Of a stretch of DNA of 57,594 bases, positions 21,387 to 54,202 are shown in pieces; position 1 is the stretch's first letter; each line of letters opens with the position of its first letter. Source of the DNA: an uncultured Prolixibacteraceae bacterium (GTDB lineage Bacteria; Bacteroidota; Bacteroidia; Bacteroidales; FEN-979); NCBI GenBank assembly GCA_964355115.1, contig CAYHCQ010000004.1, positions 1 to 57,594 on the forward strand, read 5' to 3'. Under the pieces are notes generated by a model, which was not told the origin of the DNA, searched no databases, and was given only the letters and a program-made list of their open reading frames with translations. The position numbers and the translations under genes were made by a program.

Positions 21387-21403
21387 AAGAAAAAAACTTG
21401 GTG

Positions 21404-22123: not shown

Positions 22124-22193
22124 AAAGTGAATATTAATGACTCTGGATTAGTAATTTCAAAATTACAAAAAAAACAATTGCTAAAGGAAGTTG

Positions 22194-23264: not shown

Positions 23265-23297
23265 CCCGGCTGTCAGGTAGGAGTTTTTCAAGGGTGC

Positions 23298-23588: not shown

Positions 23589-23611
23589 AATCGTTTCTGC
23601 TAAATGGTAAT

Positions 23612-41807: not shown

Positions 41808-43148
41808 ATGAAGATACTTCTGATAAATCCTCCCCGGTCGCCGGAAAACAACATACTTAAATTTGCCCCAGAAGATGCCAAACCCTTTATCCATAAGAAA
41901 CTTATCGGTCCGCCACTCGGTTTGCTTACTATTGCTGCCGCGGTAAAGGATCATGAAGTGGTGGTTTTCGACACCAAGGGGGAGTACGACCTCGAGCCAG
42001 CTACACCGCCATTGGCAGAGCTTGTGAGGCTGTTGTTATCCAGACACCAACCCGATGTGGTAGGCGTTACCACGATAACCTCGGAGTTTGACTTTTCGGT
42101 TGAGATCCTCCAGGTAGTTAAACAGACTGACCCGGGTATACTTACCGTTGCGGGCGGACTTCACGCAACCCTTTGTCCGAAGGATTTTACCGATATTTCG
42201 ATCGACATAGTGATCCCCGGACAGTGCCCTCATATTTTCCGCGATGTTATAAATGCCCGGGAGAGAGGGTTGCCCTACAATGCGATTCCCGGGCTTTACC
42301 TGAATGGACCCGGCGGGTTGAAAAAGACAACCGGCGCACCCCGTCACTGGGATTTCACCGATGCCGATTACCTTATGCCCGACCGCAGCCACCTCGCCCG
42401 CTGGATCGACACTTACAAAGTTGGCAACAGTCCTTACCCCAGTACTTATATATATACTTCACTGGGTTGTCCTTACAAATGTACTTTTTGTTCGATCTGG
42501 AGTCAGTTTAAAGGGAAATATTACCAGCGCACAATCGAAAGCCTGATCACGGAACTTAAATCCGTTGATGAATACCCAGTGGTACGCTTCGCCGATGCCA
42601 ACACAGTAGTTGATGAGCAGTTCATGCTCGGACTTTTCCGCCGGATTGAAGAGGAGGGTATCCGCAAGACCTTCATTATGGACATCCGGGCTGATATTGC
42701 TGCAAGCCGGCCGGATATTATTGAAAGACTGGCCAGAGGCGGGTTGAAGGTAGTCATCTGTGGTTTTGAATCCTTCAGGGATGAAGAGCTGAAGCGGTAC
42801 AATAAGGAATCCCCCGCTGCCGATAACCAGACGGCAGTTCAGGTATTTGAGGCGAACGGGATCATGGTGCGTGGCAATTATGTGATCCCGAACGACTATA
42901 CGGATGCAGATTTCAGGGCATTGGCCGAATATTCCGACAGAAACCGGGTGGTATATGCCGGTTATACTGTTTTAACCCCTATGCCGGGAACTGTGTTTCA
43001 TAAGCAGGTAAGAGCTGATATAGTGGACTTTAACTACAGGAAATACAATTTCTTTAACTCTGTAATGAAAACCACGCTTCCTCACGATGAGTTTCATACA
43101 AGGGTAGGGGAGCTCTGGCTGATAAAGAAGGGGAAGGACGTTATTTAA
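41808..43148 (+). CDS. Cobalamin-binding-domain radical SAM protein
   Basis: 446 aa. Motifs: MKILLINPP..., PDVVGVTTITSEF, and 4Fe-4S motif LGCPYKCTFC. Confidence 0.85.
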   Translation: MKILLINPPRSPENNILKFAPEDAKPFIHKKLIGPPLGLLTIAAAVKDHEVVVFDTKGEYDLEPATPPLAELVRLLLSRHQPDVVGVTTITSEFDFSVEILQVVKQTDPGILTVAGGLHATLCPKDFTDISIDIVIPGQCPHIFRDVINARERGLPYNAIPGLYLNGPGGLKKTTGAPRHWDFTDADYLMPDRSHLARWIDTYKVGNSPYPSTYIYTSLGCPYKCTFCSIWSQFKGKYYQRTIESLITELKSVDEYPVVRFADANTVVDEQFMLGLFRRIEEEGIRKTFIMDIRADIAASRPDIIERLARGGLKVVICGFESFRDEELKRYNKESPAADNQTAVQVFEANGIMVRGNYVIPNDYTDADFRALAEYSDRNRVVYAGYTVLTPMPGTVFHKQVRADIVDFNYRKYNFFNSVMKTTLPHDEFHTRVGELWLIKKGKDVI

Positions 43149-43183
43149 TTGATAAATGATAATTGACAATTGACAATGGATAA
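43149..43183. repeat. Tandem heptad repeat (5 units, TTGAYAA type) filling the rSAM-rSAM junction
   Basis: Reads TTGATAA ATGATAA TTGACAA TTGACAA TGGATAA. It starts immediately after the TAA stop (43146-43148) and contains the next ATG (43176). Confidence 0.85.
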
Positions 43184-44618
43184 TAGCCGGTTGAGGAGGG
43201 TGCTTCTGGTGAATACCAATGTGGAGAGGGTGCCGTATCCTGTTCCACCGCTGGGGCTTTGTATGTTGGCTGAAAGCCTGAAGGGGCTGTATGATGTAAG
43301 AATTTACGACGGTGTTTTCGATGAAGGGTGCAACCTGTTATCAGCCGTTGAATCGTTTAATCCGGACTTTATCGGCTTCAGCATCCGCAACATCGATGAT
43401 GTGGTTGCTGACCGTGAAATTTATTATATCGACGGAATCCTAAAACAGTTCATCCGGCCGGTAAAAAGCATCGCCCGGGTGCCTGTTATCCTTGGCGGAA
43501 GCGGTTTCAGCGTATTTCCCGAAGAGTTGATGGAACTAACGGGTGCCGATTACGGCATCGTTGGAGAGGGTGAATACGTTTTTCCATTACTGCTCGAATA
43601 TATCATTGCAGGTAAATCTGTTGCTGATCTCCCCAATGTGATTACCTCATCTGCCCTGGTTGTTCAGAAAGGCGAGCGTTCTTTGACCAGAACAATGGCC
43701 GGATCGGGTTTTTCGGAGATTGACAGAAAGATAGATTTCAATCCCTACCTGGCCAAAGGGGTATATTCCATTCAGACAAAGCGGGGTTGTTCGCATGGTT
43801 GTATCTACTGTACATATCCGGTTATTGAAGGACGGAAATTCCGCACTCGGCAGGCTTCGGAAATCGCTGATGAAATTGAGCAGGTTAATGGGCGGCTCGG
43901 TTACATTACCTTTGAATTTGTCGATTCCACTTTCAACGATCCGCGGGGGCATGCCGAGGCAATATGCAGGGAGATCATCAGCCGGAAATTGAAGGTACGG
44001 CTCCGCACCATGGGAATGAATCCACGTCATTGCAGCGAAGAGCTTTTCGACCTGATGATCAGGGCGGGATTTGTACAGATTGACGCAACACCCGATACCG
44101 CATCTCCGCGGATGTTAAGGAGCCTTGACAAGGGATTCCGGCTTGAAGAGATCCGGACGATGGCCACTTTGATCAGGAAGTTCAACCTTCCCACGATGTG
44201 GTTTTTTCTTTTCGGCGGACCGGGTGAAAATCCTTCCACCTTTAGAGAAACCGTTGATTTCATCCGTGCCTGTGTTAACCCGGAGGATCTTGTATACATG
44301 GCTAGCGGTTTACGGATTTATCCGCAAACGCCGTTATATCGTACAGCCTTGATTGAGGGCATGGTCAGTCCAGGCGAATCCATCCTCTATCCACCAGTAT
44401 ATTATTATTCGAAAGAGATGGGGAAAGAGGACCTGGATGCGTCAATTCAGGAGACCGCCCGTTTGTTGCACAACTGTATTCCGGCCCTTGAAACCTCACC
44501 ATCTCCTGAAATGATAAAGGAAGCCGCCGCCCTAAGGCAGGCAGAAAACCTGACGGAACCGATGTTCAGGACCCTGCTCAGAATCCGTAAAAGATGGCGG
44601 GATGCCGGGTTGGTTTAA
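43176..44618 (+). CDS. Cobalamin-binding-domain radical SAM protein
   Basis: Start set to the ATG at 43176 (MDNSRLRRVLLVNTN...); the track uses a TTG at 43170. Motifs: PDFIGFSIRNID, and 4Fe-4S motif RGCSHGCIYC. Confidence 0.85.
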   Translation: MDNSRLRRVLLVNTNVERVPYPVPPLGLCMLAESLKGLYDVRIYDGVFDEGCNLLSAVESFNPDFIGFSIRNIDDVVADREIYYIDGILKQFIRPVKSIARVPVILGGSGFSVFPEELMELTGADYGIVGEGEYVFPLLLEYIIAGKSVADLPNVITSSALVVQKGERSLTRTMAGSGFSEIDRKIDFNPYLAKGVYSIQTKRGCSHGCIYCTYPVIEGRKFRTRQASEIADEIEQVNGRLGYITFEFVDSTFNDPRGHAEAICREIISRKLKVRLRTMGMNPRHCSEELFDLMIRAGFVQIDATPDTASPRMLRSLDKGFRLEEIRTMATLIRKFNLPTMWFFLFGGPGENPSTFRETVDFIRACVNPEDLVYMASGLRIYPQTPLYRTALIEGMVSPGESILYPPVYYYSKEMGKEDLDASIQETARLLHNCIPALETSPSPEMIKEAAALRQAENLTEPMFRTLLRIRKRWRDAGLV

Positions 44619-45520
44619 ACAATTTTGGAATCGAGCGCCAGGAACCTGAATTTTCCTTCAACGAACCTGGCATTTTTTACCAGTCCTTTTGACGGGCCAC
44701 ATTCAATAAAGGTTTCAATCCCTTTTTCAAGCATGCAAGTCAGCGTTTTGAACCAATTGAGGGGGTGATACAGGTTATTTGTTAGTTCCTGCCTTATCTC
44801 ATGGGCATTACCAAGTTCCTGAGCATTGATAAGTGAAAGAAGAGGGCATGAAGGTGGGGAAAATGATATCCGGCTTACAGATTTTTCAAATTCAAGCGCT
44901 GCATCGCGCAGAAAAGCTGCATGGTAAGGGGTATTGACATTCAGTTGCCGGGTATGCAATGCGCCTTCCTCCCTGGCTGCTTCAAGTGCCCGCAAAACCT
45001 GGGTATAATCGCCGGAAATCACAAATGCAAACGGACTGTTTTGGTTGGTTATCTCGAGTTCATCGCCTGATTGTGCCACAATTCTGTCAATGTCTTGCCT
45101 GTTGAGCCCGATCAGCGTGCCCATGCTGTAACTTCTGCCGCGGGTCACATTTACTATGGCTTCATAGGCACTTCTTATGAGCCTGAGTCCGCTTGCAAAG
45201 TCAATCACGCCGGCATCGCAGAGGGCAGCATAAACCCCCATGCTGTAACCCGCTGTACAGACAGGTTTTATTCCAGACTCCCGCAGGGTTTGTGATGCTG
45301 CACAACTGTATATGTAGGTAATAAACTGGGTTAGGAGTTCACTATCAAGAAAATTACATTTCTCAAAACTGAAACCAGCCAATGCCGGTTCCGGCCCCGT
45401 TGAAGCGGTGAGAAGCAACTTGTTAAAATGCTCTGTAAACCCTGCTATCCGAGTGCCGGGATGATCGGTATAATCGTTGGCAAAAGCCGGGAAGATAAAT
45501 GCTAAACTGCTATCAGGCAA
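44615..45520 (-). CDS. ACP S-malonyltransferase-like acyltransferase (FabD family, divergent)
   Basis: 301 aa. LAFIFPAF (compare FabD FVFPGQG) and nucleophile elbow AGYSMGVYAAL (FabD has GHSLGEY). Apparent TTG start. It overlaps the convergent rSAM gene by 4 nt. Confidence 0.7.
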   Translation of the reverse strand: MPDSSLAFIFPAFANDYTDHPGTRIAGFTEHFNKLLLTASTGPEPALAGFSFEKCNFLDSELLTQFITYIYSCAASQTLRESGIKPVCTAGYSMGVYAALCDAGVIDFASGLRLIRSAYEAIVNVTRGRSYSMGTLIGLNRQDIDRIVAQSGDELEITNQNSPFAFVISGDYTQVLRALEAAREEGALHTRQLNVNTPYHAAFLRDAALEFEKSVSRISFSPPSCPLLSLINAQELGNAHEIRQELTNNLYHPLNWFKTLTCMLEKGIETFIECGPSKGLVKNARFVEGKFRFLALDSKIV

Positions 45521-45534
45521 GGGAGTAAAATGAT

Positions 45535-45843
45535 TTATTTTTCAAGTTCCAGCAGCCGGTTTTCGTGTTCAATGATCAGCAACTGCATATCAATCAGTTC
45601 TCCGATTGTGGCTACAGGATTTTTAACTGCATATTTGCCGATTACCTTCAGCTCAATATTCAGGTTGTATTTTTTCTTGAATATCTCAATCAGTTCCAGG
45701 AACATCAGCGAATCCCCGTCGAGGTCTTTGATGATGTTTGTATTATCGTTTATCTGTGATGTATCGACTTCACACTCCTCAGCAAAAAAACTGTATACCG
45801 TCTCCCTGACCTCGTTCTTTGTATTTTCGGTGATTTTGGCCAT
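45535..45843 (-). CDS. Acyl carrier protein
   Basis: 102 aa. Motif DLDGDSLMFLELIE. Confidence 0.85.
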   Translation of the reverse strand: MAKITENTKNEVRETVYSFFAEECEVDTSQINDNTNIIKDLDGDSLMFLELIEIFKKKYNLNIELKVIGKYAVKNPVATIGELIDMQLLIIEHENRLLELEK

Positions 45844-45875
45844 CTTGTATTGAATTTCTGCAAAAATAATATTTT

Positions 45876-47102
45876 TTAGAGAAAATCAGGCCGGATTTTT
45901 TTGAATACCAGGGTTGCGTTATGACCACCAAATCCGAATGAGTTTGAAAGCGCTACCCCGATCTGGCTTTCCCTTGCAATATTAGCGATATAATCAAGAT
46001 CCAGGTCCGGATCCGGGGTATCATAGTTTATTGTAGGCGGTAAAACACCCTTTTCCAGGCTGAGCACAGTAATGATGCCCTCGATGGCCCCGGCAGCGCC
46101 AATGGTATGCCCAAGCATCGATTTGGAGGAAGAGACCGGAATTCCGTATGCCAGATCCCCGAATACGCGTTTAATCGCCATTGTTTCATAGCGGTCATTC
46201 AATTCCGTAGATGTTCCGTGAGCATTGATATAACCAACCTCTTCCTTTTTTACACCGGAATTAAACAGCGCTTTTTCTATTGTCCGGGCCATGCCAGCCC
46301 CGTCCTGCATCGGGGCCATGATGTTGTAACCTTCACTGGTAAGCGCATACCCGGCCACCTCTGCATGTATGCCGGCCGTTCGGGCAAGTGCATGGTCGAG
46401 CGATTCAAGAATCAACACCCCGGCACCTTCGCCGATCACAAATCCGTCGCGGTCTTTCGAGAATGGTTTGCTTGCCTTCCCGGGGGGATCGTTGGCAACA
46501 GAGAGTGCATAAAGCGCATTGAATCCCCTGATCTCTTCCGGGTTAATAATCGAGTCGGCACCTCCAACGATCACGATATCAGACTGATTGTTCCTGATCA
46601 TGTCGGCGCCCATTGCAATTGCATAAGCAGATGAAGCACAGGCAGTGTTGATCGCAAAGTTGGGTCCAAGCAGCTGGTATTCGAGAGATATCCATGCAGG
46701 CATGGAGTTGGTCATCGATTTAAAGACCGTATTTTGAGGTGTGGTATCCTGCTCAACACTTGAATTCCCTGTATTCACAACACCAAGGATCACGCTGCAA
46801 CGTGTTTTGTCGCACGTTTCAAAGTCGATACCGGCATCGGCTACAGCCATTTTGGCTGCAGCTATACACATCCGGGTGACCCGTGTCATCTGCCCCGCAG
46901 CCCGTTTCTTAACAAAGGTCCGGGCAAATTCATCAAATTCCGGAGAAACTTCAGCAGCTATCTGTGTCTGATTTTCTGAAGGGTCGAACCGTGTTATCCT
47001 TTTGACACCGCTCTTGCCGGCGATCAGATTTTTCCAGTTTGTTTCCAAATCCAGGCCCAGGGAGGTGACCATGCCCATCCCGGTAACAACAACTCTCCTC
47101 AT
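45876..47102 (-). CDS. Beta-ketoacyl-ACP synthase (FabF/FabB-like, Cys-His-His)
   Basis: Start set at MRRVVVTGMGMVT. Active-site motifs NTACASS, NAHGTSTELND and LGHTIGAAG. Confidence 0.9.
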   Translation of the reverse strand: MRRVVVTGMGMVTSLGLDLETNWKNLIAGKSGVKRITRFDPSENQTQIAAEVSPEFDEFARTFVKKRAAGQMTRVTRMCIAAAKMAVADAGIDFETCDKTRCSVILGVVNTGNSSVEQDTTPQNTVFKSMTNSMPAWISLEYQLLGPNFAINTACASSAYAIAMGADMIRNNQSDIVIVGGADSIINPEEIRGFNALYALSVANDPPGKASKPFSKDRDGFVIGEGAGVLILESLDHALARTAGIHAEVAGYALTSEGYNIMAPMQDGAGMARTIEKALFNSGVKKEEVGYINAHGTSTELNDRYETMAIKRVFGDLAYGIPVSSSKSMLGHTIGAAGAIEGIITVLSLEKGVLPPTINYDTPDPDLDLDYIANIARESQIGVALSNSFGFGGHNATLVFKKIRPDFL

Positions 47103-47113
47103 TGGAAATTTTC

Positions 47114-47506
47114 CTATTTGTTCAGATTTGCCGACCACCTGCAGATCATATCAACTTCGGCCTTGGTGGGTATGGCATCAGGATTCTTTTTGCGCCAGCT
47201 CTTGGTGGGCATGGCTCCCTTGGTAAGTTCTTTGCACATATCCTTTGCTTTATCAGCTTGCTTTTCGGCCGAATATTCATTCCATTTCGAAAAATTCAGC
47301 TTCATCCGGGCCATCGAACTGCCATCATCGGCATGACAGTCCATGCATGCACGCTGAACCAGCTTCAGCACACTGTCGGGAAGGGCGGTTCCGGGAGCGA
47401 TGGCAGATTTTTCATCCGATCCTCTTGCTTGCCGGGGTGTGAATAGCATAGAGCAGGCAGCGACCGTAAAAATAACAACTGCAGCGATTGTGACTATTTT
47501 TTTCAT
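47114..47506 (-). CDS. Secreted/anchored haem-binding domain protein (CXXCH)
   Basis: Start set at MKKIVTIAAVVIFTVAACS. It has a single c-type haem motif ACMDCHADDGS, about 130 aa, resembling the Haem_bd family. Confidence 0.6.
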   Translation of the reverse strand: MKKIVTIAAVVIFTVAACSMLFTPRQARGSDEKSAIAPGTALPDSVLKLVQRACMDCHADDGSSMARMKLNFSKWNEYSAEKQADKAKDMCKELTKGAMPTKSWRKKNPDAIPTKAEVDMICRWSANLNK

Positions 47507-47557
47507 GATTGTCGTATGTTTATACAAAAATAGTAAAAATAAACTTCAATACCTGAA

Positions 47558-50134
47558 TTAATCAAAGGGTCCTTTTTCGAGTCCGAAATACTCCTTTATT
47601 GCATCATTCATCTCGCCAACAGGCAGGTGGGCGAGTGCGGTATATCGTTTTGATGCATTCAGGTAGGTGAACCTCAGGTGTTCAGCAATTTCGTCAGAAT
47701 TTTCGGGAAGTCTTACCTCTTCATTTTCCAGCGGATAATCGTAGAAGCCAGAATTTGTCTTCATTCCGAGCCTCCCGACTGCGCAAAGCGATTCCAGTTT
47801 CCCGATAAATGGGGTAAAGTATTCGCGATGGGGATAATCTGCTGTATAATTCTCTACGGCAGCCAGCATAGTATCATTCCCTACACTGTCGCAGAAATCA
47901 AATACTCCGAACGGAAAGATCCGCTCCTTTACAACCTGGTCCATCTGTGCAAAGGTGCACCTCCCTTCGGCAACGATTCGGTATGCTTCGTTCTGAAAAT
48001 CAAGGAATAACCGATTCAAAACAAAGCTGTTTGGCTCGTCGAACTCAAGGTACTTTCTTTGAATGGATTCAAGAAACTGGCGGACAAACACTTTGGTAGT
48101 ATCAGACGTGGAGGATGTAGTTGTAAATTCCACGATGTTTTTCAATTGTACCGGGTAGAAAAAGTGCAACCCGACAAATTTTTCACGACGGGCCGAGGCA
48201 GGGGAGAGGAGAGAGGGATGAATGGAGGAGGAGTTTGATGCGAAGATGCAATCTCCGTGAACAAGTGTGTCAAGCTCCGAAAAGAGTTTCTTCTTCAGTT
48301 CAGGGCTTTCCGGGATTGCTTCTATAACCAGGTTGCAATCTGCAAGCGATTCAGGATCAGATGATATTACAGTCTGCCCGAGGATGTCAAACGCCTCTCT
48401 TTCGATAATGCCTGCATCCAAGGAGCGGTTGATCTTTCTTTTGACCTGCTTCATCATTTTATCCGGGTCAGCAGCCGGACTCACCAGCCAAACCAGTTTA
48501 AAACCGAAACCCACAAGGTAGTAGAAGATGCTTGTGCCCATCTTGCCTTCGCCGATGATGCCAATGGTAAGGATGCAGGATGCAGGATGCAGGATGCTAA
48601 CTGATAATTTTTTCCAGGGACCTTTATCCTGGCCCATAACCAGTTTCCGGTATTCATCCATATTCTTTTGGTGCTCTCTGATATGCCGGTTGTAGCCAAG
48701 CATGGAGAGCATGAACCCGAGCCCTTTGTCGATGGCGATCTGTTTTGTGCGGATGAGCCGCATGATGAATGAGAATAATTTTTTCCTCTCCGGATCGCGG
48801 GTAAGCACAAACTCTTTAAAGGTGATCCATGATAGCCGTGCTTTCATCAAGGGAGAGATATCTCCTCCGGGACGGGTGAATGCCCCGTTGATGAAGAGGG
48901 CCTCTGCTTTTTTCCGGATCGTGTCGAAGGAGTATAGCCTGGCGATCGTCTCCATGTAACCGTCGAACAGGTCGATCTGCGACATGTTCATGTAGTGAAC
49001 TGTAGGGAAGTGGCCAACACCCAGTTCCGGATCACAATAGGTAAGCCGGCCCTCGTCCCTGAATTTCCTGTGGACCTCTGTTCCCGGCGGGGCATTCAGC
49101 AGGTGAAGATTTACATGCGGAAGGTTATATTTCAGGGTGAAGTCAAAGATCCGGTCAAACTCCTCGAGGGTGTCGTTATCGAATCCGACGACAAAACTTG
49201 CGTTGATATGAATTCCGGCAGCATGGATTTTACGGATTGCCTCCTCATAGATTGATCCGCCCCGGTTATGATGTTTCTGCGATTCGTCAAGGCTCGCAGG
49301 GTTCAGCGATTCAAATCCGACAAGGATGTTGAAGCAGCCTGCATCGGCCATCAGTTTAAGCAGTTCATCGTCGGTGGCAACATCCAGACTGCACATGCAT
49401 CCCCAGGAGATTTTGAGGGGAATGATCGCCCGCATCAGCTCTTTAGCGTACTTTTTATTAATGGTAAGGTTATCGTCGACAAAAAAGAAATATTTCGAGG
49501 GTGCGGCTTTTATCTCTTCAACAACATTTACAATCTCGCGGTAACGCATCTTGCGGCCGAAATTCTTCGAAACCAGGCAGAAATCGCAGTTGAACGGACA
49601 CCCCCGGGAAACCTGGATGGCAACCTGGAAGATTCGTTTCATGTTTACCAGGTCCCAGCGCGGTGGCTTCTGCGTTTTGTATTCCACGTAACCTTCCGAT
49701 TCATAAACCGGTTTCATGCAGCCATTTTCAAAATCTGCCAGACACTTTTCCCATTTGCCTTCCGCTTCGCCCGCAACCACAGAATCTCCGTGCTTCAGCG
49801 CCTCCTCCTGCTGGAACGTCGCATAAGGTCCGCCGAAAACAACTTTCACCCCCATAGCACGATACCGGTCACCAAGTGCAAACGCACGTTTGGCAGTAGC
49901 AGCCAGCGTAGTGATACCAACAATATCGGGACGGATATTCCGCGGAATCTCTTCGATCTCCTCATCGTAAATACGGATGTCGTAGTGGTCCGGCGTCAGC
50001 GCTGCAATGGTAGGCAGAGCCAGTGGCACCATCAGCCTGCGCTTTCCGAACATCTTCGCCATCTCGCTGTGAGCAGGATAGTTAACAAATTTTTGCCGCG
50101 GCGAAAGCAGAAATAATATGTATCTATTTTTCAC
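47558..50134 (-). CDS. Fusion protein: cobalamin-binding-domain radical SAM (N-terminal) + 3-hydroxyacyl-CoA dehydrogenase (C-terminal)
   Basis: 858 aa with a GTG start. The rSAM part has PDIVGITTLAATA and SRGCPFNCDFC. The HADH part has IGIIGEGKMG, VIEAIPESPELKKKLF, ASNSSSI, GLHFFYPV and SFVLNRL. The junction lies at about 48571-48598. Confidence 0.85.
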   Translation of the reverse strand: MKNRYILFLLSPRQKFVNYPAHSEMAKMFGKRRLMVPLALPTIAALTPDHYDIRIYDEEIEEIPRNIRPDIVGITTLAATAKRAFALGDRYRAMGVKVVFGGPYATFQQEEALKHGDSVVAGEAEGKWEKCLADFENGCMKPVYESEGYVEYKTQKPPRWDLVNMKRIFQVAIQVSRGCPFNCDFCLVSKNFGRKMRYREIVNVVEEIKAAPSKYFFFVDDNLTINKKYAKELMRAIIPLKISWGCMCSLDVATDDELLKLMADAGCFNILVGFESLNPASLDESQKHHNRGGSIYEEAIRKIHAAGIHINASFVVGFDNDTLEEFDRIFDFTLKYNLPHVNLHLLNAPPGTEVHRKFRDEGRLTYCDPELGVGHFPTVHYMNMSQIDLFDGYMETIARLYSFDTIRKKAEALFINGAFTRPGGDISPLMKARLSWITFKEFVLTRDPERKKLFSFIMRLIRTKQIAIDKGLGFMLSMLGYNRHIREHQKNMDEYRKLVMGQDKGPWKKLSVSILHPASCILTIGIIGEGKMGTSIFYYLVGFGFKLVWLVSPAADPDKMMKQVKRKINRSLDAGIIEREAFDILGQTVISSDPESLADCNLVIEAIPESPELKKKLFSELDTLVHGDCIFASNSSSIHPSLLSPASARREKFVGLHFFYPVQLKNIVEFTTTSSTSDTTKVFVRQFLESIQRKYLEFDEPNSFVLNRLFLDFQNEAYRIVAEGRCTFAQMDQVVKERIFPFGVFDFCDSVGNDTMLAAVENYTADYPHREYFTPFIGKLESLCAVGRLGMKTNSGFYDYPLENEEVRLPENSDEIAEHLRFTYLNASKRYTALAHLPVGEMNDAIKEYFGLEKGPFD
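48571..48598. repeat. In-frame tandem heptad repeat (GGATGCA x3 + GGATGCT) at the rSAM/HADH domain junction
   Basis: Read directly: ggatgca ggatgca ggatgca ggatgct. On the coding strand it translates as SILHPASCIL, immediately before the HADH Rossmann motif TIGIIGEGKMG. Confidence 0.9.
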
Positions 50135-50172
50135 TTTTCACTCTTAACTCTTAACTCTTCACTTTTCACTCA
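50131..50172. repeat. Tandem heptad repeat (6 units, T[CA]ACT[CT]T type) spanning the KASIII / rSAM-HADH junction
   Basis: Reads tcacttt tcactct taactct taactct tcacttt tcactca. It covers the GTG start (50132-50134), the 24-nt spacer and the TGA stop (50159-50161). Confidence 0.85.
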
Positions 50173-51268
50173 GCACATATCCGGCTTGCATGAATTTACT
50201 TACCTCCGTTACAAAACTGAGTACAATATCACCGGGCTGAAGTACCTCTTCATGCATGATTTTATCGAGGCAGAGCAGGGCCATAGGCGGACCGATATAG
50301 CCCATCGTTGCCATCTTTGAATAAAGCGTTTCGCGCGGGATGCCAAGTTCGGTGCACTCGTCCATCACCAGTTCTGAAATATGCTTCGATGGAAAATTGA
50401 CCTGGAAATACCTGAGTTTGCTGAAATCCACGGGATGAAGTGCAACCATCCGCTTCAAACCATTAAGGAAGACAGAGCCATCGGGTTCATGAAAGTTGGC
50501 TCTCAGTTCCTCCTGGAACATCTGGGCCAGGTGATGATAACCCTTTTCAAACTCCTCCTTCGGGTTCATCCAGTAGGCCGGGCGTTTGTTGCCCATGGCA
50601 GAGGGCTTGTTGCCCCCGGTGGATTCGATGTAGGCATAATCTACGAACAGCCCTTTTCCCTCATCTCCGGCTGCCTGCAGAACCAGGGCGGCCGCTCCAT
50701 CGCTGAGGAAATAGCGGAGAAAAAGTTCTTCCTTAGTCACCAGCGCCTGGTTGTAGTATTCGGCAACCAATTCGGAGGATGACATGCTTGAGGAGATCAC
50801 AAGGGCTTTTTTATACCGCCCGGAACGGATCATGTCCGAGGCGATCATAAGCGCTTTATAAGCCGATGTGCAGTTGGCATGCACCGAAATTTCGGCACAG
50901 CGTTCGATTCCCAACCCTTCCTGGATGCGGACTGAGGCGGTAGGCATCTGGTCCTGGTGGGCGCTGCCGTAAACGATCAGGTCGATCTCCGACGGCTTCA
51001 TCCCTGCATCAGCAAGTGCAACCTGAGCGGCCTTCACCGACATTGTTACATTGTCCTCAGTAAATTGTCGTGTAACCGGATCCAGGGCAAAATGGTAGAA
51101 CTCCACTTCAAGGAGTTCGGCCATAAGAATTTTTATCCTTTTCAGCCATTTTTGGATCTTATCAGGGGCGTTCGTTAACTCCCCGAGGTAGTAATCCACA
51201 TCTGCTGCCGGGATGGCTTTGCCGGGTAAAAACGATCCGCTTCCTGCAATTTTCACACTGGCCATCAT
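50159..51268 (-). CDS. KASIII (FabH)-like thiolase-fold enzyme, atypical
   Basis: 369 aa. FabH-like N-terminus (VKIAGSGSFLPGK) and Cys context SVHANCTSAYKAL. The region aligning to FabH GNTSAAS reads GYIGPPM (eye alignment only). Confidence 0.7.
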   Translation of the reverse strand: MMASVKIAGSGSFLPGKAIPAADVDYYLGELTNAPDKIQKWLKRIKILMAELLEVEFYHFALDPVTRQFTEDNVTMSVKAAQVALADAGMKPSEIDLIVYGSAHQDQMPTASVRIQEGLGIERCAEISVHANCTSAYKALMIASDMIRSGRYKKALVISSSMSSSELVAEYYNQALVTKEELFLRYFLSDGAAALVLQAAGDEGKGLFVDYAYIESTGGNKPSAMGNKRPAYWMNPKEEFEKGYHHLAQMFQEELRANFHEPDGSVFLNGLKRMVALHPVDFSKLRYFQVNFPSKHISELVMDECTELGIPRETLYSKMATMGYIGPPMALLCLDKIMHEEVLQPGDIVLSFVTEVSKFMQAGYVLSEK

Positions 51269-51951
51269 GCAAAATATTTTTTAATGTACAAGGCTGTTTT
51301 CTCCTTGTGAAAATCGGCAATAACCGACTTTGCAAATTTGATGGCAGATTTCACGACTTCCCTTTTGGGCAATATCTTCTGAACAAATTTCATTTCAAGC
51401 GCTTCAGCCGCCGAAAATGTATTTGCCTTCAGCACCAGTTCAAGTGCGCGGCTGCGGCCGATAAGGGCCGACATTTTTACTATCCCTCCAAGGCCCGGCA
51501 CCAGGTTAAAAGAGGTTTCCGGAAGGCCGAAAACGGCATCTTCGCCACAAAACCTGAAATGGCTGAAGAGGGTAAGTTCCAGTGCCGATCCAAGGCATAC
51601 ACCCCGGATGGCTGAGATTACCGGTATTTCAAACCGGTCCAGTTTCAGGAAGGTCTCATAATTTGCAGTGAGAACAGCTGGCACCCCGGTAACTACTCCA
51701 TTGGCCACCACAGAACCCGACCTGATCTCCTCCAGAAGTGCCGGAAGTCCGGCTCCGGATGAAAAATGGCGGCCGTGTCCGCTGATAACAAGAGCCATGA
51801 ATGCAGGGTTGTTCCCGATCAATTCCACAGCCTCCCTAAACTCCCTGAAGAATTCCAGGGTCATGCTGTTCGACGGCGGCTGATTAAGCACCAGCTGGCC
51901 GATACCATCAGATAAGCTCAGATCGAAGGTCGTAAAGCCGGGGAGGGTCAT
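51265..51951 (-). CDS. Enoyl-CoA hydratase/isomerase (crotonase) family protein
   Basis: 228 aa. Crotonase oxyanion-type segments GHGRHFSSGAG and AIRGVCLGSALEL. It has 4-nt overlaps on both sides. Confidence 0.8.
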   Translation of the reverse strand: MTLPGFTTFDLSLSDGIGQLVLNQPPSNSMTLEFFREFREAVELIGNNPAFMALVISGHGRHFSSGAGLPALLEEIRSGSVVANGVVTGVPAVLTANYETFLKLDRFEIPVISAIRGVCLGSALELTLFSHFRFCGEDAVFGLPETSFNLVPGLGGIVKMSALIGRSRALELVLKANTFSAAEALEMKFVQKILPKREVVKSAIKFAKSVIADFHKEKTALYIKKYFA

Positions 51952-52694
51952 AGGCCTTTGTTGCGTTGTGATTCTGCCAGAGCAAGTTCGCAGAAGAGTC
52001 TAGTCTCCTCCTTCATTGCCTCTTCGGCCGGTAGTGTCCGGGCATTGCGCAGCGCCTTCATCACGGCATGTATTACAGGCAGAGGACGGTCCAGGGTCAT
52101 TTTCTGCAACAGCGAAAAGGAAAAGTCGAATAGTTTTGCCCTGGGCACGATATAATCTACAAGTTTCATCTCCAGCGCATCCTCTGCATTTATCATATCG
52201 CCGGCCATGATCATCTTTAGCGAATTCTGAAATCCGGCAAGTTCGGTAGCCCTCACAGTACCGCCCAGACCGGGAAGGATGCCATGGTTGATCTCAGGAA
52301 AGGCAAAGAGCGAATTTTCGGTACAGACCCTGATGTGAGAGGCAAGAGCGATCTCTAGTCCACCGCCGAAACAGATGCCCTGGATCGCGGAAACTACAGG
52401 TATATTAAGGTTCTCCAGGTGGCTTAATACAGCTTTTCCACCTTCCATTTTCGCTGCAAGATCCTCCTTCTCCCTGATCATTTTAAAGAGATTTTCCAGC
52501 TTTCCCCCACCCGAAAAATGCTTTCCGGCGCCACAAATCAATATTCCCTTCAGGTAGTCGTAGGAGGTCCACTTCCGGATCACTTCCAGCGGAAGGAACT
52601 CAGGATTTTCCAGATAATTCTCCGGCGGGTTGTCGAGAGTAATGATCCCGATGTCCTTGCGAATTTCCCAGCTTATCTTATCACTTTTTTCCAT
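51948..52694 (-). CDS. Enoyl-CoA hydratase/isomerase (crotonase) family protein
   Basis: 248 aa. Motifs GAGKHFSGGG, AIQGICFGGGLEIAL and FPEINHGILPGLGGT. Confidence 0.85.
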   Translation of the reverse strand: MEKSDKISWEIRKDIGIITLDNPPENYLENPEFLPLEVIRKWTSYDYLKGILICGAGKHFSGGGKLENLFKMIREKEDLAAKMEGGKAVLSHLENLNIPVVSAIQGICFGGGLEIALASHIRVCTENSLFAFPEINHGILPGLGGTVRATELAGFQNSLKMIMAGDMINAEDALEMKLVDYIVPRAKLFDFSFSLLQKMTLDRPLPVIHAVMKALRNARTLPAEEAMKEETRLFCELALAESQRNKGL

Positions 52695-52722: not shown

Positions 52723-53106
52723 TCAGTTGAGGATATTCATCTCGGCAGGGACATCACACGGCATCCGTGAGGTGTCTACGAACACTGTTTTAACTGTTGC
52801 CCTTGCTGCCGGCAAACCGGTTGTTTTGTTGAACAGCTTCTGTTCAAAAACCAGGTACGGGGCCGACCGTTTTGTCCGGGTAACCACCTCGATCTCGTCG
52901 AACAGCCTTATTTCGCGCTGGTAGCGTATATGAACATCCACCACAACGAGAAACAGACCGTTTTGGGTAAAAAACTCAAGCAGTCCGGCATCCCTGAACA
53001 ACTCCCAGCGTGCCTGTTCAATGTAGTTCAGGTAGACCGCGTTGTTGACGTGTCCGTATGAGTCGAGCTCATTCCCGCGGGCCGTTATTTTACTCCGATG
53101 AATCAT
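52723..53106 (-). CDS. Hotdog-fold acyl-CoA/ACP thioesterase (4HBT/YbgC-like)
   Basis: Start set at MIHRSKITARGNELDSYGHVNNAVYLNYIEQARW, which overlaps the upstream stop as ATGA. Confidence 0.8.
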   Translation of the reverse strand: MIHRSKITARGNELDSYGHVNNAVYLNYIEQARWELFRDAGLLEFFTQNGLFLVVVDVHIRYQREIRLFDEIEVVTRTKRSAPYLVFEQKLFNKTTGLPAARATVKTVFVDTSRMPCDVPAEMNILN

Positions 53107-53498
53107 TCGGCGACCAATTTTCCCTTGAATTTCAGAAATGTTGTGTCGTTCGCCGAAAGGGTTGCCTGAACGGAGTAACACCCTTCTTCCGGCTGCTTTA
53201 CAACCAGGTCGAGGGTGATCCCGGGGTATTCCAGCGGGCTGATCATAGACAAAAACTTTATGTTATCCGATTCAGTCAGCTTCAGTTTTTTTCCCGTTAT
53301 TGAATTCAGGGCCTCCACGATCATCTGGACCTGGCACACGCCGGGAACCACCGGGTTTCCGGGGAAATGTCCGCCGAAGATGGGATGACCGGGATCCAGC
53401 ACAAGTCCGGCAGTGTAATGCTTCAACACCACTCCCTGCGGATTGATTTCGTCGCGACCGTCGAGGGTTTTAATAGTATAAAACGTATTTAGTAACAT
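53103..53498 (-). CDS. FabZ/FabA-like 3-hydroxyacyl-ACP dehydratase
   Basis: Start set at the internal ATG (MLLNTFYTIK...). Catalytic motif HPIFGGHFPGNPVVPGVCQVQM. Confidence 0.85.
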   Translation of the reverse strand: MLLNTFYTIKTLDGRDEINPQGVVLKHYTAGLVLDPGHPIFGGHFPGNPVVPGVCQVQMIVEALNSITGKKLKLTESDNIKFLSMISPLEYPGITLDLVVKQPEEGCYSVQATLSANDTTFLKFKGKLVAE

Positions 53499-53569
53499 GA
53501 TTAAATTTTCACCTGTCAGATTAACCGTCAAAAATACAAAATGTAAAGGAATACCGGGTTGCCTAATTG

Positions 53570-54202
53570 CTATTGGCTGATCCACCCGAGTTTAATGATC
53601 AGACCTATCCCCGGATTGTAGAGGCGGATTTTCTGGACGAAGGTGCCTGTGGGATATTCAAATTCGATGCGGTATTTGTCCCAGGGATTGGTTCCCCCGG
53701 CGATTTCGGTCACATAACTGGTTTTCGGGTCAATGTAATAATAGCAGTTGCTTTTGCTCACATAAAGTACCGGTGCGCCGTTTTTTTTATCGGTAAACTG
53801 CACCAGATCATCTGTTGAAAAACTGTAAAACATCAGCGCCCGGAGATCTGCCTCAATGATTTTCAGGAGCGCTTTTTTTTGCATCGGGGTAAAAATGTAG
53901 TGGGAGATAAACCTGCCTCGCAAAAACTCCACATCGAAGATCGTCATCCCGATGTCGTTGGCAAAAACAATCCGGTATGAGGTATCTGCACTTTTTTTGA
54001 TCATTGTATAGCCGGTGAGATGAAATTCCCGGATGTCCATGGTTGTACGGAAGAGTGATTTTTCGAACATCCCCATGAATGGCGATTCCCACGACGACCT
54101 GGCAAGAGTTGCATTATTTCCTCTTAACAGGGTGCTTTTGTCGACCGGGGAGCAGCCCCACAGCAACGCCAGGAGAAGACTAAGGAATAAGGAACTTCTC
54201 AT
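53570..54202 (-). CDS. Lipoprotein of unknown function (position equivalent to the small lipoprotein of aryl-polyene clusters)
   Basis: 210 aa with lipobox LLLALLWGCS. No catalytic motif was seen. Confidence 0.55.
   Translation of the reverse strand: MRSSLFLSLLLALLWGCSPVDKSTLLRGNNATLARSSWESPFMGMFEKSLFRTTMDIREFHLTGYTMIKKSADTSYRIVFANDIGMTIFDVEFLRGRFISHYIFTPMQKKALLKIIEADLRALMFYSFSTDDLVQFTDKKNGAPVLYVSKSNCYYYIDPKTSYVTEIAGGTNPWDKYRIEFEYPTGTFVQKIRLYNPGIGLIIKLGWISQ

What the first reader, a model, noticed from the sequence alone, without database searches (positions are those of the whole stretch)
47558..50134. Single ORF fusing a cobalamin-type radical SAM enzyme to a 3-hydroxyacyl-CoA dehydrogenase
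The N-terminal 520 aa or so carry the B12-domain-like segment and CX3CX2C (SRGCPFNCDFC). The C-terminal 320 aa or so carry a complete HADH signature (IGIIGEGKMG, VIEAIPES, ASNSSSI, GLHFFYP, NRL). I know of no described rSAM-HADH fusion. No FabG-type ketoreductase is seen in the window, so this HADH domain may be the cluster's beta-keto/beta-hydroxy redox step, physically coupled to radical chemistry on the same acyl chain.
Basis: partly seen in the sequence, partly recalled or inferred. Interest (0 to 1): 0.75.

Follow-up and report, generated by a model that had tools for sequence, protein, structure and literature searches.

The report
Repeat-linked radical-SAM/dehydrogenase gene fusion
Two neighbouring genes of a flexirubin-type pigment/lipid cluster in an uncultured Bacteroidales bacterium, a B12-type radical SAM enzyme and a 3-hydroxyacyl-CoA dehydrogenase, have recently been joined into one protein by reading through a short 7-base repeat, which shows the two enzymes work together but is a lineage-specific variant, not a new kind of enzyme.

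Summary
ORF 47558-50134 (-) encodes 858 aa with four Pfam domains above threshold: B12-binding, Radical_SAM (CX3CX2C), 3HCDH_N and 3HCDH. A second assembly record has the same junction, so it is not an assembly artefact.

It is a recent, lineage-specific fusion of two genes that are adjacent in all 13 orthologous loci examined. About 14 protein clusters are fused, and roughly 100 of the top 120 homologues are rSAM-only. The closest relatives (L001, L084) are split. Fused forms are scattered through the rSAM tree. No fused protein is among the top 150 of 1.84 billion 50%-identity representatives.

The linker is a perfect, stop-free heptamer array (GCATCCT x4, 48570-48597). It is one of many 7/8-nt arrays at gene boundaries in these clusters. 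AlphaFold models it as a disordered tether.

The cluster is flexirubin-type: FlxY, DarH and LolB2 pass curated cutoffs. It lacks the canonical SDR reductase FlxB. Instead it carries HADH, two ECH genes, a DarB-like ketosynthase and four B12-rSAMs.

Function is inferred. HADH probably interconverts 3-oxo and 3-hydroxy groups on a pantetheine-linked acyl chain, and the rSAM probably does a radical step on the same chain. The chemistry is unresolved.

The parts
47558..50134 (-). Fused ORF, 858 aa: B12-type radical SAM half, repeat-encoded linker, HADH half
   Evidence: identical junction in a second assembly record, L003
49757..49990 (-). B12-binding-like Rossmann domain (aa 49-126)
   Evidence: Pfam PF02310, 37.9 bits against cutoff 32.1; confidently modelled
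49139..49618 (-). Radical SAM core (aa 173-332); the CX3CX2C motif C179/C183/C186 lies at 49577-49600
   Evidence: Pfam PF04055, 74.4 bits; the three cysteines are invariant in 56 homologues
48570..48597 (-). Perfect heptamer tandem repeat GCATCCT x4, encoding most of the interdomain linker (..S-ILHPASCIL-T..); stop-free in all three frames
   Evidence: TRF: 100% match, 4.0 copies; sequence; pLDDT below 50 at aa 513-519; frame simulation
48050..48568 (-). HADH NAD(P)-binding domain (aa 523-695), with GxGxxG = GEGKMG
   Evidence: Pfam PF02737, 125.7 bits; full-length alignment to 3-hydroxybutyryl-CoA dehydrogenase 9fbd
47735..48025 (-). HADH C-terminal domain (aa 704-800)
   Evidence: Pfam PF00725, 59.3 bits; equivalents of Ser137, His158, Glu170 and Asn208 are conserved
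47561..47734 (-). Conserved C-terminal extension of about 58 aa, specific to this HADH subfamily
   Evidence: Invariant residues in alignment A1; stand-alone HADH representatives cover query 521-858; helical in the model
50130..50171 (-). Heptamer array (GAGTKAA x6) spanning the stop of the DarB-like gene and the GTG start of the fused gene
50159..51268 (-). KSIII-like ketosynthase whose best match is the StlD/DarB family (below cutoff); immediately upstream
   Evidence: NCBIfam NF005293, 108.7 bits against cutoff 450; DarB, 82.7 against 550; 75-85% conserved across loci
51265..52694 (-). Two enoyl-CoA hydratase/crotonase genes (51265-51951 and 51948-52694)
   Evidence: Pfam ECH_1, 110 and 122 bits; NCBIfam
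52723..53585 (-). 4HBT/YbgC-type thioesterase (52723-53181) and FabA/ApeI-like dehydratase (53103-53585)
47114..47527 (-). Small Haem_bd protein with a CxxCH motif, conserved directly downstream of HADH in every locus
   Evidence: Pfam PF14376; synteny
44615..47138 (-). FabF-like KS (45876-47138), ACP (45535-45843) and FabD-like acyltransferase (44615-45520)
41808..44618 (+). Two further B12-rSAM genes: 41808-43148 (best match HpnR) and 43170-44618 (TIGR04072 'lipid biosynthesis B12/rSAM', 322 bits against cutoff 360). Heptamer array 43146-43184 lies between them
20079..24616 (-). Flexirubin marker genes: FlxY acyl-CoA ligase (20079-21386) and DarH acyltransferase (23612-24616)
   Evidence: NCBIfam above the curated cutoffs: 710.8 against 520 and 334.1 against 300
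53570..54202 (-). Flexirubin LolB2
   Evidence: NCBIfam NF053540, 89.4 bits against cutoff 60

Best explanation
This is a genuine but recent, lineage-specific fusion of two genes that are always adjacent in a flexirubin-type (aryl-polyene/dialkylresorcinol-like) cluster variant of uncultured, probably anaerobic, Bacteroidales. In split relatives the rSAM gene ends ...GPWKK* and the HADH start codon overlaps or closely follows it. In this lineage that ATG and the stop codon were lost. A stop-free heptamer array (GCATCCT x4), one of the 7/8-nt repeat spacers that populate gene boundaries in these clusters, now lies in frame between the halves. It forms a flexible tether of about 8-15 residues. 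The product is a bifunctional enzyme.

Inferred function: both halves act on the same pantetheine-thioester-linked acyl intermediate, made or used by the adjacent DarB-like and FabF-like ketosynthases. The HADH half interconverts 3-oxoacyl and (S)-3-hydroxyacyl using NAD(P)(H), with the two crotonases as its stereochemically matched dehydratase/hydratase partners. Together they stand in for the SDR reductase (FlxB) that canonical flexirubin clusters have and this one lacks. The rSAM half performs a radical step on a neighbouring carbon: C-methylation, or BchE/AprD4-like oxidation or dehydration next to the C3 oxygen.

My preferred concrete version runs as follows. The rSAM functionalises C3 of an acyl thioester. 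HADH oxidises the 3-hydroxy product to 3-oxoacyl, and ECH dehydrates it to 2-enoyl. That yields the two substrate types a DarB-type cyclising ketosynthase needs.

Shown: the ORF, the domains, intact catalytic residues, the repeat linker, the adjacency, recurrent fusion and fission, the cluster type, and the absence of an SDR. Inferred: substrate, reaction direction, rSAM chemistry and cobalamin use.
For: ORF and domains.
HADH catalytic Ser/His/Glu/Asn and GxGxxG are conserved. The HADH fold has TMt 0.82-0.86 to (S)-3-hydroxybutyryl-CoA dehydrogenases.
rSAM cysteines are invariant.
Same junction in a second assembly record. The P0002-type fused protein is on at least 18 contigs.
Split relatives have an overlapping or closely adjacent HADH gene: L001, L005-L010, L084, L085.
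ATG to CTG, TAA to TTA, and +37 nt including the 28-nt array.
Other repeat arrays sit at the same boundary in L002, L007, L008, L009 and L084. 35 of 54 tandem arrays in 254 kb of orthologous loci have period 7 or 8, mostly at ORF ends.
Fused forms are scattered among split ones in the rSAM tree.
The linker has pLDDT below 50. pTM is 0.60 for the whole protein and 0.86 for the rSAM half alone.
The sub-operon DH-TE-ECH-ECH-DarB-like-rSAM-HADH-HaemBD-KS-ACP-AT is conserved in all loci with flanks.
FlxY, DarH and LolB2 are above the curated cutoffs.
The canonical cluster uses the SDR FlxB and has no rSAM, ECH or HADH. There is no SDR in the window or in ten loci.
Structural relatives CysS and TokK were solved with pantetheinylated substrates.
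BchE, the best-scoring rSAM family, oxidises a methylene beta to an ester carbonyl to a ketone (abstract of PMC13598231).
Against: There are no experimental data for any member.
The rSAM half is far below every curated family cutoff (BchE 104 against 481, HpnJ 101 against 578, AprD4 56 against 500), so its chemistry cannot be transferred.
The DarB-like gene is also far below its cutoff, and no DarA was recognised.
HADH enzymes usually use CoA rather than ACP substrates, and a housekeeping FabG could supply the polyene ketoreduction in trans.
Most lineages manage with two separate proteins, so fusion is not required for function.
The Asp that binds the NAD ribose in classical HADH is a Ser here; the significance is unknown.
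The cluster is cut off at the window's end, so an SDR further upstream cannot be excluded for this genome. None lies within 10 kb of the rSAM gene in the relatives.
Confidence: 0.6

Rival explanations
1. One reading: HADH is the ketoreductase of the polyene (type II PKS/FAS-like) elongation cycle. It replaces the missing SDR FlxB/ApeQ and reduces each 3-oxoacyl-ACP, while the fused rSAM modifies the growing chain.
For: There is no SDR in the window or within 10 kb in ten relatives. The canonical flexirubin cluster has the SDR FlxB for this step. KS/CLF, ACP, AT and a hot-dog dehydratase are all present. From my own knowledge, HADH-family enzymes acting on ACP-bound substrates are known (FkbK/ZmaG in hydroxymalonyl-ACP formation).
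Against: Established stereochemistry argues against it. HADH makes (3S)-hydroxyacyl, whereas FabZ/ApeI-type hot-dog dehydratases use (3R). The stereochemically matched partners of HADH are the two crotonases. The tightest, invariant linkage is to the DarB-like KS and the ECH genes rather than to the KS/CLF pairs, which are absent upstream in the L086 lineage. Housekeeping FabG could act in trans.
Confidence: 0.3
2. Sequencing or assembly artefact: a frameshift or collapsed repeat falsely merges two separate genes.
For: The junction is a short tandem repeat, a classic site of assembly and polishing errors. L003 has only 3.4x coverage. The closest relatives are split.
Against: Separate assembly records agree base for base at the junction. 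The ancestral HADH start (ATG to CTG) and the rSAM stop (TAA to TTA) are both gone, so a separate HADH would have no start codon in 2 of the 3 frame states. Fused orthologues without repeats were assembled on at least 18 contigs from many samples.
Confidence: 0.03
3. Slipped-strand switch: the heptamer tract varies in copy number within populations. It toggles the locus between a fused enzyme (1, 4 or 7 copies), two separate proteins (2, 5 or 8 copies, with an ATG-initiated HADH) and rSAM-only with HADH off (0, 3 or 6 copies), so that the product is phase-variable.
For: Simulation gives exactly these three states. The array is 100% perfect. The same boundary carries long arrays in relatives, up to about 22 heptamers and (CAAT)x10.
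Against: Four units is a short tract. The one other assembly also has 4 copies. Two metagenome scans found no variants. The alternative-frame ATG is a by-product of the conserved MDEYR codons. Most arrays are intergenic, where copy number does not change the frame.
Confidence: 0.08
4. AprD4/AprD3-like logic: the rSAM half does not use cobalamin and is a radical dehydratase or oxidase that generates a ketone on the substrate. The fused NAD(P)H-dependent dehydrogenase then reduces that ketone, giving net deoxygenation or redox isomerisation.
For: AprD4 is the best solved relative both by sequence (E=3.6e-15) and by fold (TMt 0.72). From my own knowledge, AprD4 works with the NADPH-dependent reductase AprD3 and has a B12-like domain that binds no cobalamin.
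Against: Identity is only 20%. The AprD4 family model scores 56 bits against a cutoff of 500, below the BchE, HpnJ, ApyD and PhpK models. AprD3 is not an HADH-family enzyme, and the substrate class (aminoglycoside) is unrelated.
Confidence: 0.12

Closest known systems
Flexirubin biosynthetic gene cluster (flx/dar genes of Chitinophaga pinensis and Flavobacterium johnsoniae; Schoener et al. 2014, PMC3992019)
   Same: FlxY-type acyl-CoA ligase, DarH acyltransferase and LolB2 pass NCBIfam's curated cutoffs. KS/CLF pairs, ACP, hot-dog dehydratase, thioesterase, LolA, polysaccharide deacetylase, GT2/DUF2062, MMPL exporter/acyltransferase and a FlxV-like FAD enzyme are all present.
   Different: There is no FlxB-type SDR, no recognised DarA, and no TAL in the window. 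The DarB homologue is far below its cutoff. The cluster adds four B12-rSAM genes, an HADH, two crotonases and a haem-binding protein, none of which appear in the published cluster tables. The hosts are uncultured Bacteroidales from anoxic lakes and peat rather than aerobic Flavobacteriia or Chitinophagia.
Class B (B12-binding-domain) radical SAM enzymes: BchE, HpnJ, AprD4, CysS, TokK, TsrM, OxsB
   Same: An N-terminal Rossmann B12-like domain followed by a radical SAM barrel with CX3CX2C. CysS and TokK act on pantetheine-linked substrates, the same handle that HADH recognises.
   Different: No curated family cutoff is reached; the best is BchE at 104 against 481. Identity to any solved structure is 20% or less. 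None of these enzymes is known to be fused to, or obligatorily paired with, an HADH.
3-hydroxyacyl/3-hydroxybutyryl-CoA dehydrogenases (Hbd, human HADH, and the HADH domains of FadB/FadJ)
   Same: Full-length alignment, about 30% identity, the same fold (TMt 0.82-0.86), and the Ser/His/Glu/Asn catalytic set with GxGxxG. In FadB, HADH is likewise fused to a pathway partner (a crotonase).
   Different: It is below all equivalog cutoffs (159 against 408). The NAD-ribose Asp is replaced by Ser. It carries a conserved C-terminal extension of about 58 aa. Its fusion partner is a radical SAM enzyme rather than a crotonase.
Anammox 'ladderane-type' lipid clusters (Rattray et al. 2009, PMC2649909; TIGR04072)
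   Same: FAS-II-like genes together with B12-rSAM enzymes, a phytoene-desaturase-like FAD enzyme, a deacetylase, LolA and an exporter. One window rSAM scores 322 bits on TIGR04072.
   Different: That score is below the cutoff of 360. Flexirubin markers are present. The paper mentions neither hydroxyacyl-CoA dehydrogenase nor enoyl-CoA hydratase. The organism is Bacteroidales, not an anammox planctomycete.
Intergenic heptanucleotide direct repeats (TAACTGA arrays of Beggiatoaceae, Cyanobacteria and some Bacteroidetes; MacGregor 2015, PMC4679880)
   Same: Short arrays of 7-nt units sit at gene boundaries just upstream of start codons, often overlapping the upstream stop codon.
   Different: The unit sequences differ (GAGTKAA, TTGATAA, GCATCCT, ATTCGTT and others) and change between close relatives. 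Here one stop-free array has been captured as a coding linker.

Membership tests
Radical SAM superfamily, class B (B12-binding domain) | Radical SAM core domain with a CX3CX2C [4Fe-4S] motif | tested here: met
   PF04055 scores 74.4 bits against cutoff 29.5. C179, C183 and C186 are invariant in 56 homologues.
Radical SAM superfamily, class B (B12-binding domain) | N-terminal B12-binding Rossmann-like domain | tested here: met
   PF02310 scores 37.9 bits against cutoff 32.1. The modelled fold matches AprD4, MgmA, CysS, OxsB and TsrM.
Radical SAM superfamily, class B (B12-binding domain) | Actual cobalamin binding and dependence | not testable with these tools
   From my own knowledge, the nearest solved relative, AprD4, has the domain but does not use cobalamin, so the fold alone does not decide this.
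Any named B12-rSAM equivalog (BchE, HpnJ, AprD4, PhpK, ApyD) | NCBIfam curated whole-protein cutoff | tested here: not met
   BchE 104.1 against 481; HpnJ 100.7 against 578; ApyD 84.3 against 750; PhpK 82 against 600; AprD4 55.7 against 500.
3-hydroxyacyl-CoA dehydrogenase (3HCDH) family | 3HCDH_N and 3HCDH C-terminal domains | tested here: met
   125.7 bits and 59.3 bits, against cutoffs of about 22. TMt is 0.82-0.86 to Hbd structures.
3-hydroxyacyl-CoA dehydrogenase (3HCDH) family | Catalytic His-Glu pair plus the Ser and Asn, and the GxGxxG dinucleotide motif | tested here: met
   GLHFFYP, IVEF, ASNSSSI, LNRL and GEGKMG align with human His158, Glu170, Ser137 and Asn208. All are invariant among the 14 fused proteins.
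3-hydroxyacyl-CoA dehydrogenase (3HCDH) family | Membership of a named equivalog (Hbd, PaaH, FadB) | tested here: not met
   The best score is 159.1 bits against cutoff 408.
3-hydroxyacyl-CoA dehydrogenase (3HCDH) family | Activity on 3-hydroxyacyl/3-oxoacyl thioesters, carrier (CoA or ACP) and cofactor preference | not testable with these tools
   Ser replaces the NAD-ribose Asp. This is a hint only.
Flexirubin-type biosynthetic cluster | FlxY acyl-CoA ligase, DarH acyltransferase and LolB2 | tested here: met
   710.8 against 520; 334.1 against 300; 89.4 against 60.
Flexirubin-type biosynthetic cluster | DarB dialkylresorcinol ketosynthase | tested here: not met
   The StlD/DarB family scores 108.7 against 450 and DarB 82.7 against 550. 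It is a relative, not a member by the curated score.
Flexirubin-type biosynthetic cluster | SDR ketoreductase (FlxB) and DarA | tested here: not met
   No SDR was found by Pfam or by tblastn. No protein matched a DarA model in the NCBIfam scans, though I could not confirm that such a model exists in the library.
Ladderane-type lipid cluster (TIGR04072 rSAM) | TIGR04072 curated cutoff for the cluster's B12-rSAM | tested here: not met
   The neighbouring rSAM at 43170-44618 scores 322.4 against 360. TIGR04072 is not among the 25 best families listed for the fused rSAM, the weakest of which scores 55.7 bits.
Phase-variable (contingency) simple-sequence-repeat locus | A repeat inside the coding path whose unit length is not a multiple of 3, so that copy number sets the reading frame | tested here: met
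   7-nt unit x4; the simulation gives three frame states.
Phase-variable (contingency) simple-sequence-repeat locus | Observed copy-number polymorphism among reads or strains | tested here: inconclusive
   The only other assembly has 4 copies. Two metagenome scans returned nothing. No read data were available.

The most novel reading that the evidence does not exclude
The invariant DarB-like KS / B12-rSAM / HADH / 2x ECH module is an oxygen-independent route that turns a saturated acyl thioester into the ring-forming substrates of a resorcinol/cyclohexanedione-type condensation. A BchE-like radical SAM enzyme functionalises the beta-carbon. The tethered HADH oxidises the 3-hydroxy intermediate to 3-oxoacyl, and a crotonase supplies the 2-enoyl partner. 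This would be the first radical-SAM 'anaerobic beta-oxidation' of a fatty acyl chain, and an anaerobe-specific version of flexirubin/dialkylresorcinol biosynthesis. Repeat-driven fusion and fission (possibly phase-variable) would tune how tightly the two steps are coupled.
Probability: 0.15. Interest if true: 0.75.

Novelty: new variant of a known kind. Interest (0 to 1): 0.45.

Why it matters
The fusion acts as a Rosetta-stone signal. It says that an uncharacterised, very highly conserved B12-type radical SAM enzyme (70-87% identity across Bacteroidales) works directly with a 3-hydroxyacyl dehydrogenase inside a flexirubin-like pathway that lacks the usual ketoreductase.

A 2026 review states that radical SAM chemistry on 'ketoacyl' (fatty-acid-type) lipids is so far proposed only for ladderanes and jawsamycin (PMC13459092). 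This module is therefore a concrete, expressible candidate for a third case. The naturally fused protein is a convenient single-polypeptide target for biochemistry.

The way the fusion arose is a clear example of how intergenic heptamer repeats can create new multidomain proteins. These repeats are a known but unexplained feature of some bacterial genomes.

None of this is a new kind of system. The two domains, the cluster type and neighbour-gene fusion are all familiar.

Tried and rejected
1. Ladderane/anammox-type cluster. This was my first impression from Pfam. I rejected it as the label because flexirubin-specific families pass their curated cutoffs, TIGR04072 is not reached, and the hosts are Bacteroidales.

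2. Assembly artefact. Rejected on the basis of separate assembly records, the lost start and stop codons, and recurrent fusions elsewhere.

3. Single ancient fusion. Rejected because fused proteins are scattered among split ones in the rSAM-half NJ tree, and the linkers are unrelated between subgroups. The tree has no bootstrap support, so the number of events (at least 5) is approximate.

4. L005 and L006 looked fused by tblastn frame, but they have an in-frame TGA and a new ATG, so they are split.

5. P0125 (366 aa, 'HADH-only' in the P0002 cluster) is just a fragment of a fused gene starting at an internal Met. It is not evidence for a split form.

6. The heptamer-like array at 56479-56507, with the same unit as the linker in the opposite orientation, is degenerate periodicity inside a conserved CLF coding motif that recurs about 215 nt into the homologous genes. 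I treat it as chance.

7. Looking for repeat-number variants: two metagenome scans found nothing.

8. Extending beyond the window's end by exact look-up of the CLF protein failed.

9. More distant rSAM homologues (40-44% identity) have no adjacent HADH and no lipid context, so they give no functional lead.

10. A beta-branching cassette (HMGS + ECH1 + ECH2) was considered for the KSIII-like gene plus the two ECH genes. HMG-CoA synthase models score far below the DarB/FabH models, so I did not pursue it.

11. Four literature searches for the pairing or fusion returned nothing relevant.

12. The full-length Foldseek search was dominated by the HADH half, so I modelled the rSAM half separately.

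Full report
**1. The observation**

The ORF listing returns a single ORF at 47558..50134 on the minus strand. Pfam places four domains above their gathering thresholds:
- B12-binding, aa 49-126
- Radical_SAM, aa 173-332, with CPFNCDFC
- 3HCDH_N, aa 523-695
- 3HCDH, aa 704-800

NCBIfam agrees on both halves, but no equivalog cutoff is reached. The best HADH model scores 159 bits against a cutoff of 408, and the best rSAM model (BchE) scores 104 against 481. Gene callers start the protein at Met25 (834 aa; P0001 and P0121). Residues 5-24 are conserved in 56 homologues and model as a confident strand, so the GTG start is the likelier one.

**2. Is the fusion real?**

Yes. L003 is a separate assembly record (ENA ERZ4201063). 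It matches the window over 5,143 nt with five substitutions and no indel, so its junction is identical. The window's own protein is on record from both NCBI and Logan. Thirteen further protein clusters at 62-73% identity have the same four-domain architecture. One of them (P0123) sits on at least 18 contigs from many samples.

**3. How the fusion arose**

In the closest rSAM relative, L001 (87% identity), the two genes are separate and overlap by 13 nt...GGACCATGGAAAAAGTAA, where the rSAM ends GPWKK* and HADH starts MEKVIGIVGEGKMG in another frame. In the window three things have changed:
- That ATG is now CTG.
- The TAA is now TTA.
- 37 extra nucleotides (1 mod 3) lie between the conserved Trp and the GEGKMG motif.

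Twenty-eight of the 37 are a perfect tandem array, GCATCCT x4 (48570-48597). The unit has no stop codon in any frame and encodes ILHPASCIL.

The window's closest DNA relative is L084 (83% nt identity, and in the same 90%-identity protein cluster as the window's protein). It ends its rSAM at GPWKKLSI*, exactly where the array begins in the window. It then carries a different 8-mer array and a separate HADH start. Other lineages have other arrays at this same boundary:
- degenerate CATCCNN units in L002 (fused) and L009 (split)
- 8-mers plus (CAAT)x10 in L007
- 8-mers plus about 22 ATTCGTT units in L008

So repeat arrays are born and replaced at this boundary, and here one of them is read in frame.

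**4. Fused versus split across the family**

All 13 orthologous loci examined have HADH directly after the rSAM. The census is:
- Fused: the window, L003, L002, L004, L086/L087.
- Split: L001, L005, L006, L007, L008, L009, L010, L084, L085.

Of the 120 best database hits, 14 are fused and the remaining 106 carry only the rSAM domains, most of them about 510-520 aa. In an NJ tree of the rSAM halves, fused proteins are scattered among split ones (WIN with P0015, P0002 with P0016, and so on). Together with the unrelated linkers, this indicates at least five fusion or fission events. The exhaustive search of 1.84 billion 50%-identity representatives lists no fused protein among its top 150; every hit is rSAM-only or HADH-only. 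More distant rSAM homologues (40-44% identity) have no adjacent HADH. The architecture is therefore rare, young and confined to one Bacteroidota orthologue group. The gene pair itself is invariant in that group.

**5. The linker and the repeat phenomenon**

AlphaFold2 models both halves confidently (mean pLDDT 87). Residues 513-519 fall below 50. pTM is 0.60 for the whole protein and 0.86 for the rSAM half alone. The domains are well defined, but the tether is flexible and no fixed interface is predicted.

Heptamer arrays are not special to this junction. Seven of the nine TRF arrays in the window have period 7, and all seven lie in the cluster core. Most are at gene boundaries: 43146-43184, 50130-50171 (which contains the upstream stop and this gene's GTG) and 56744-56840. 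Across 254 kb of orthologous loci, 35 of 54 arrays have period 7 or 8, mostly within 20 nt of an ORF end. Such intergenic heptamer repeats upstream of start codons have been described in Beggiatoaceae, Cyanobacteria and a few Bacteroidetes, without an established function (PMC4679880).

Simulating copy number gives three states:
- 1, 4 or 7 copies: a fused protein.
- 2, 5 or 8 copies: two proteins, with an ATG-initiated HADH.
- 0, 3 or 6 copies: rSAM only, because HADH has no start codon.

I found no copy-number variants, so a phase-variable switch remains a low-probability possibility.

**6. What the cluster is**

Pfam first suggested an aryl-polyene or 'ladderane'-like cluster. NCBIfam settles the question, because three proteins exceed the curated cutoffs of flexirubin-pathway families:
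- FlxY ligase: 711 bits, cutoff 520
- DarH acyltransferase: 334 bits, cutoff 300
- LolB2: 89 bits, cutoff 60

The gene immediately upstream of the fusion best matches the StlD/DarB family of cyclising ketosynthases, though far below the cutoff (109 against 450). One neighbouring rSAM nearly reaches TIGR04072 (322 against 360).

The published flexirubin cluster uses an SDR (FlxB) and a retinol-reductase-like FAD enzyme (FlxV). Its text and gene tables list no radical SAM, B12, enoyl-hydratase or HADH gene. The window keeps a FlxV-like gene but has no SDR at all. Pfam on every ORF of at least 150 aa finds none, and E. coli FabG has no tblastn hit at E<=1 in the window or in ten related loci.

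The order DH-TE-ECH-ECH-DarB-like-rSAM-HADH-HaemBD-FabF-ACP-AT-rSAM(s)-GT2-MMPL is conserved in every locus with enough flank. The rSAM (70-86%), DarB-like KS (75-85%) and FabF-like KS (72-82%) are the most conserved members, and HADH (45-66%) evolves faster. The hosts are uncultured Bacteroidales, Prolixibacteraceae and other Bacteroidota MAGs from lakes, peat and permafrost.

**7. The two halves**

HADH half. It aligns end to end with 3-hydroxybutyryl-CoA dehydrogenases (9fbd, E=3e-37). It keeps the GxGxxG motif and the Ser/His/Glu/Asn catalytic set. It superposes on Hbd structures with TMt 0.82-0.86. Ser replaces the Asp that binds the NAD ribose, and there is a conserved C-terminal extension of about 58 aa that is shared with stand-alone members of the subfamily.

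rSAM half. It has only remote solved relatives. AprD4 is best both by sequence (E=4e-15) and by fold (TMt 0.72, 20% identity). MgmA, CysS, OxsB, TsrM and TokK follow, and CysS and TokK were crystallised with pantetheinylated substrates. Its chemistry cannot be assigned by homology. From my own knowledge, AprD4 shows that the B12-like domain does not guarantee cobalamin use.

**8. Mechanism**

Shown: a bifunctional polypeptide with intact catalytic motifs in both halves; a flexible repeat-derived tether; invariant adjacency; recurrent fusion; a flexirubin-type context; and no SDR.

Inferred: both halves act on one pantetheine-linked acyl intermediate. HADH and the two crotonases form a stereochemically matched (S)-specific set (established beta-oxidation enzymology). 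The hot-dog dehydratase would need (R)-hydroxyacyl, which argues mildly against HADH being the polyene-cycle KR. It favours a role with the neighbouring ECH genes and the DarB-like ketosynthase.

By published precedent, DarB-type enzymes condense a beta-ketoacyl thioester with a 2-enoyl thioester (Fuchs et al. 2013, as cited in PMC3992019; the substrate details are from my own knowledge). HADH and ECH would make exactly those two species from a 3-hydroxyacyl thioester.

The best-scoring rSAM family, BchE, oxidises a methylene beta to an ester carbonyl to a ketone (PMC13598231 abstract). A BchE-like functionalisation of C3, followed by HADH, would explain why these two genes in particular keep fusing.

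I rank this version first among the specific chemistries, at roughly 0.25-0.3. C-methylation by the rSAM is compatible with either.

**9. Novelty and score**

Both domain families, the cluster class, neighbour-gene fusion and intergenic heptamer repeats are all known. Fused proteins already sit in public databases under automatic names. What is undescribed, as far as six full-text searches show, is twofold: the obligate rSAM-HADH pairing inside an SDR-less flexirubin-type cluster of anaerobic Bacteroidales, and the repeat-derived linker.

I rate it a new variant of a known kind, with interest 0.45. It is still worthwhile as a biochemical lead.

Noticed in passing
window 43146-43184, 50130-50171, 56744-56801, 56807-56840; also L007 9884-9986, 11533-11700 and 17411-17495; L008 1552-1791, 7320-7353 and 7504-7549; L004 8433-8488 and 9585-9671: Gene boundaries in this cluster and its relatives are filled with tandem arrays of 7-nt (sometimes 8- or 4-nt) units. 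The units differ between close relatives; examples are GAGTKAA, TTGATAA, ATTCGTT x22 and (CAAT)x10. Stop and start codons are often embedded in the arrays. 35 of 54 arrays in 254 kb have period 7 or 8. This resembles the unexplained intergenic heptamer repeats reported by MacGregor 2015.
   Followed up: partly
window 36587-40486 (-): A 1,299-aa three-part fusion of an MMPL-type exporter, a lysophospholipid-type acyltransferase and a SAM methyltransferase. It is conserved at the same length (1,298-1,299 aa) in related loci.
   Followed up: no
window 47114-47527 (-): A small (137 aa) protein with an N-terminal hydrophobic segment and a CxxCH haem-binding motif (Pfam Haem_bd). It lies directly downstream of HADH in every orthologous locus. 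It could be an electron-transfer partner for the radical SAM enzymes, but its role is unknown.
   Followed up: partly
window 32121-33392 (-), 41808-43148 (+), 43170-44618 (+), plus the fused gene: The cluster holds four B12-type radical SAM genes. The fused one is closest to 32121-33392 (31% identity). 43170-44618 nearly reaches TIGR04072, the 'lipid biosynthesis B12/rSAM' ladderane-cluster type (322 bits against cutoff 360). 41808-43148 best matches the hopanoid C-3 methylase HpnR (129 against 650).
   Followed up: partly
window 19349-31681 (-): The distal part of the cluster combines flexirubin markers (FlxY, DarH) with a sulfotransferase (22194-23291), an O-methyltransferase (26255-27379), an ABC-2 permease, a CarboxypepD_reg outer-membrane protein and three ORFs with no family hit (19349-20029, 21404-22123, 27438-29246). 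This suggests a sulfated or methylated product unlike classical flexirubin.
   Followed up: no
L002 about 11530-11570 and L009 about 11510-11550: The rSAM/HADH junction in these two lineages also contains a G/C-rich palindrome (CCCCTCCCC..AAAGG..GGGGAG) upstream of the degenerate heptamers. It is translated as linker in L002 and lies at the rSAM 3' end in L009.
   Followed up: no
L010 88-1275: The rSAM orthologue in this MAG lacks about 100 residues (query aa 293-392) relative to all the others. It could be a deletion, a pseudogene or a misassembly.
   Followed up: no
L086/L087 1-6544: In the P0002 lineage the conserved module starts at the ApeI-like dehydratase. Upstream are a sigma-54 two-component system and a gas-vesicle gene instead of the KS/CLF, deacetylase, LolA and LolB2 genes. 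The core module is therefore separable from the polyene/export genes.
   Followed up: no
window 56479-56507 (-), and equivalent positions about 215 nt into the CLF-like genes of L001, L004 and L009: There is weak 7-nt periodicity inside the CLF coding sequence (..EDAGCRMLDAG..). In the window its unit equals the linker unit in the opposite orientation. This is probably a coding-motif coincidence.
   Followed up: partly
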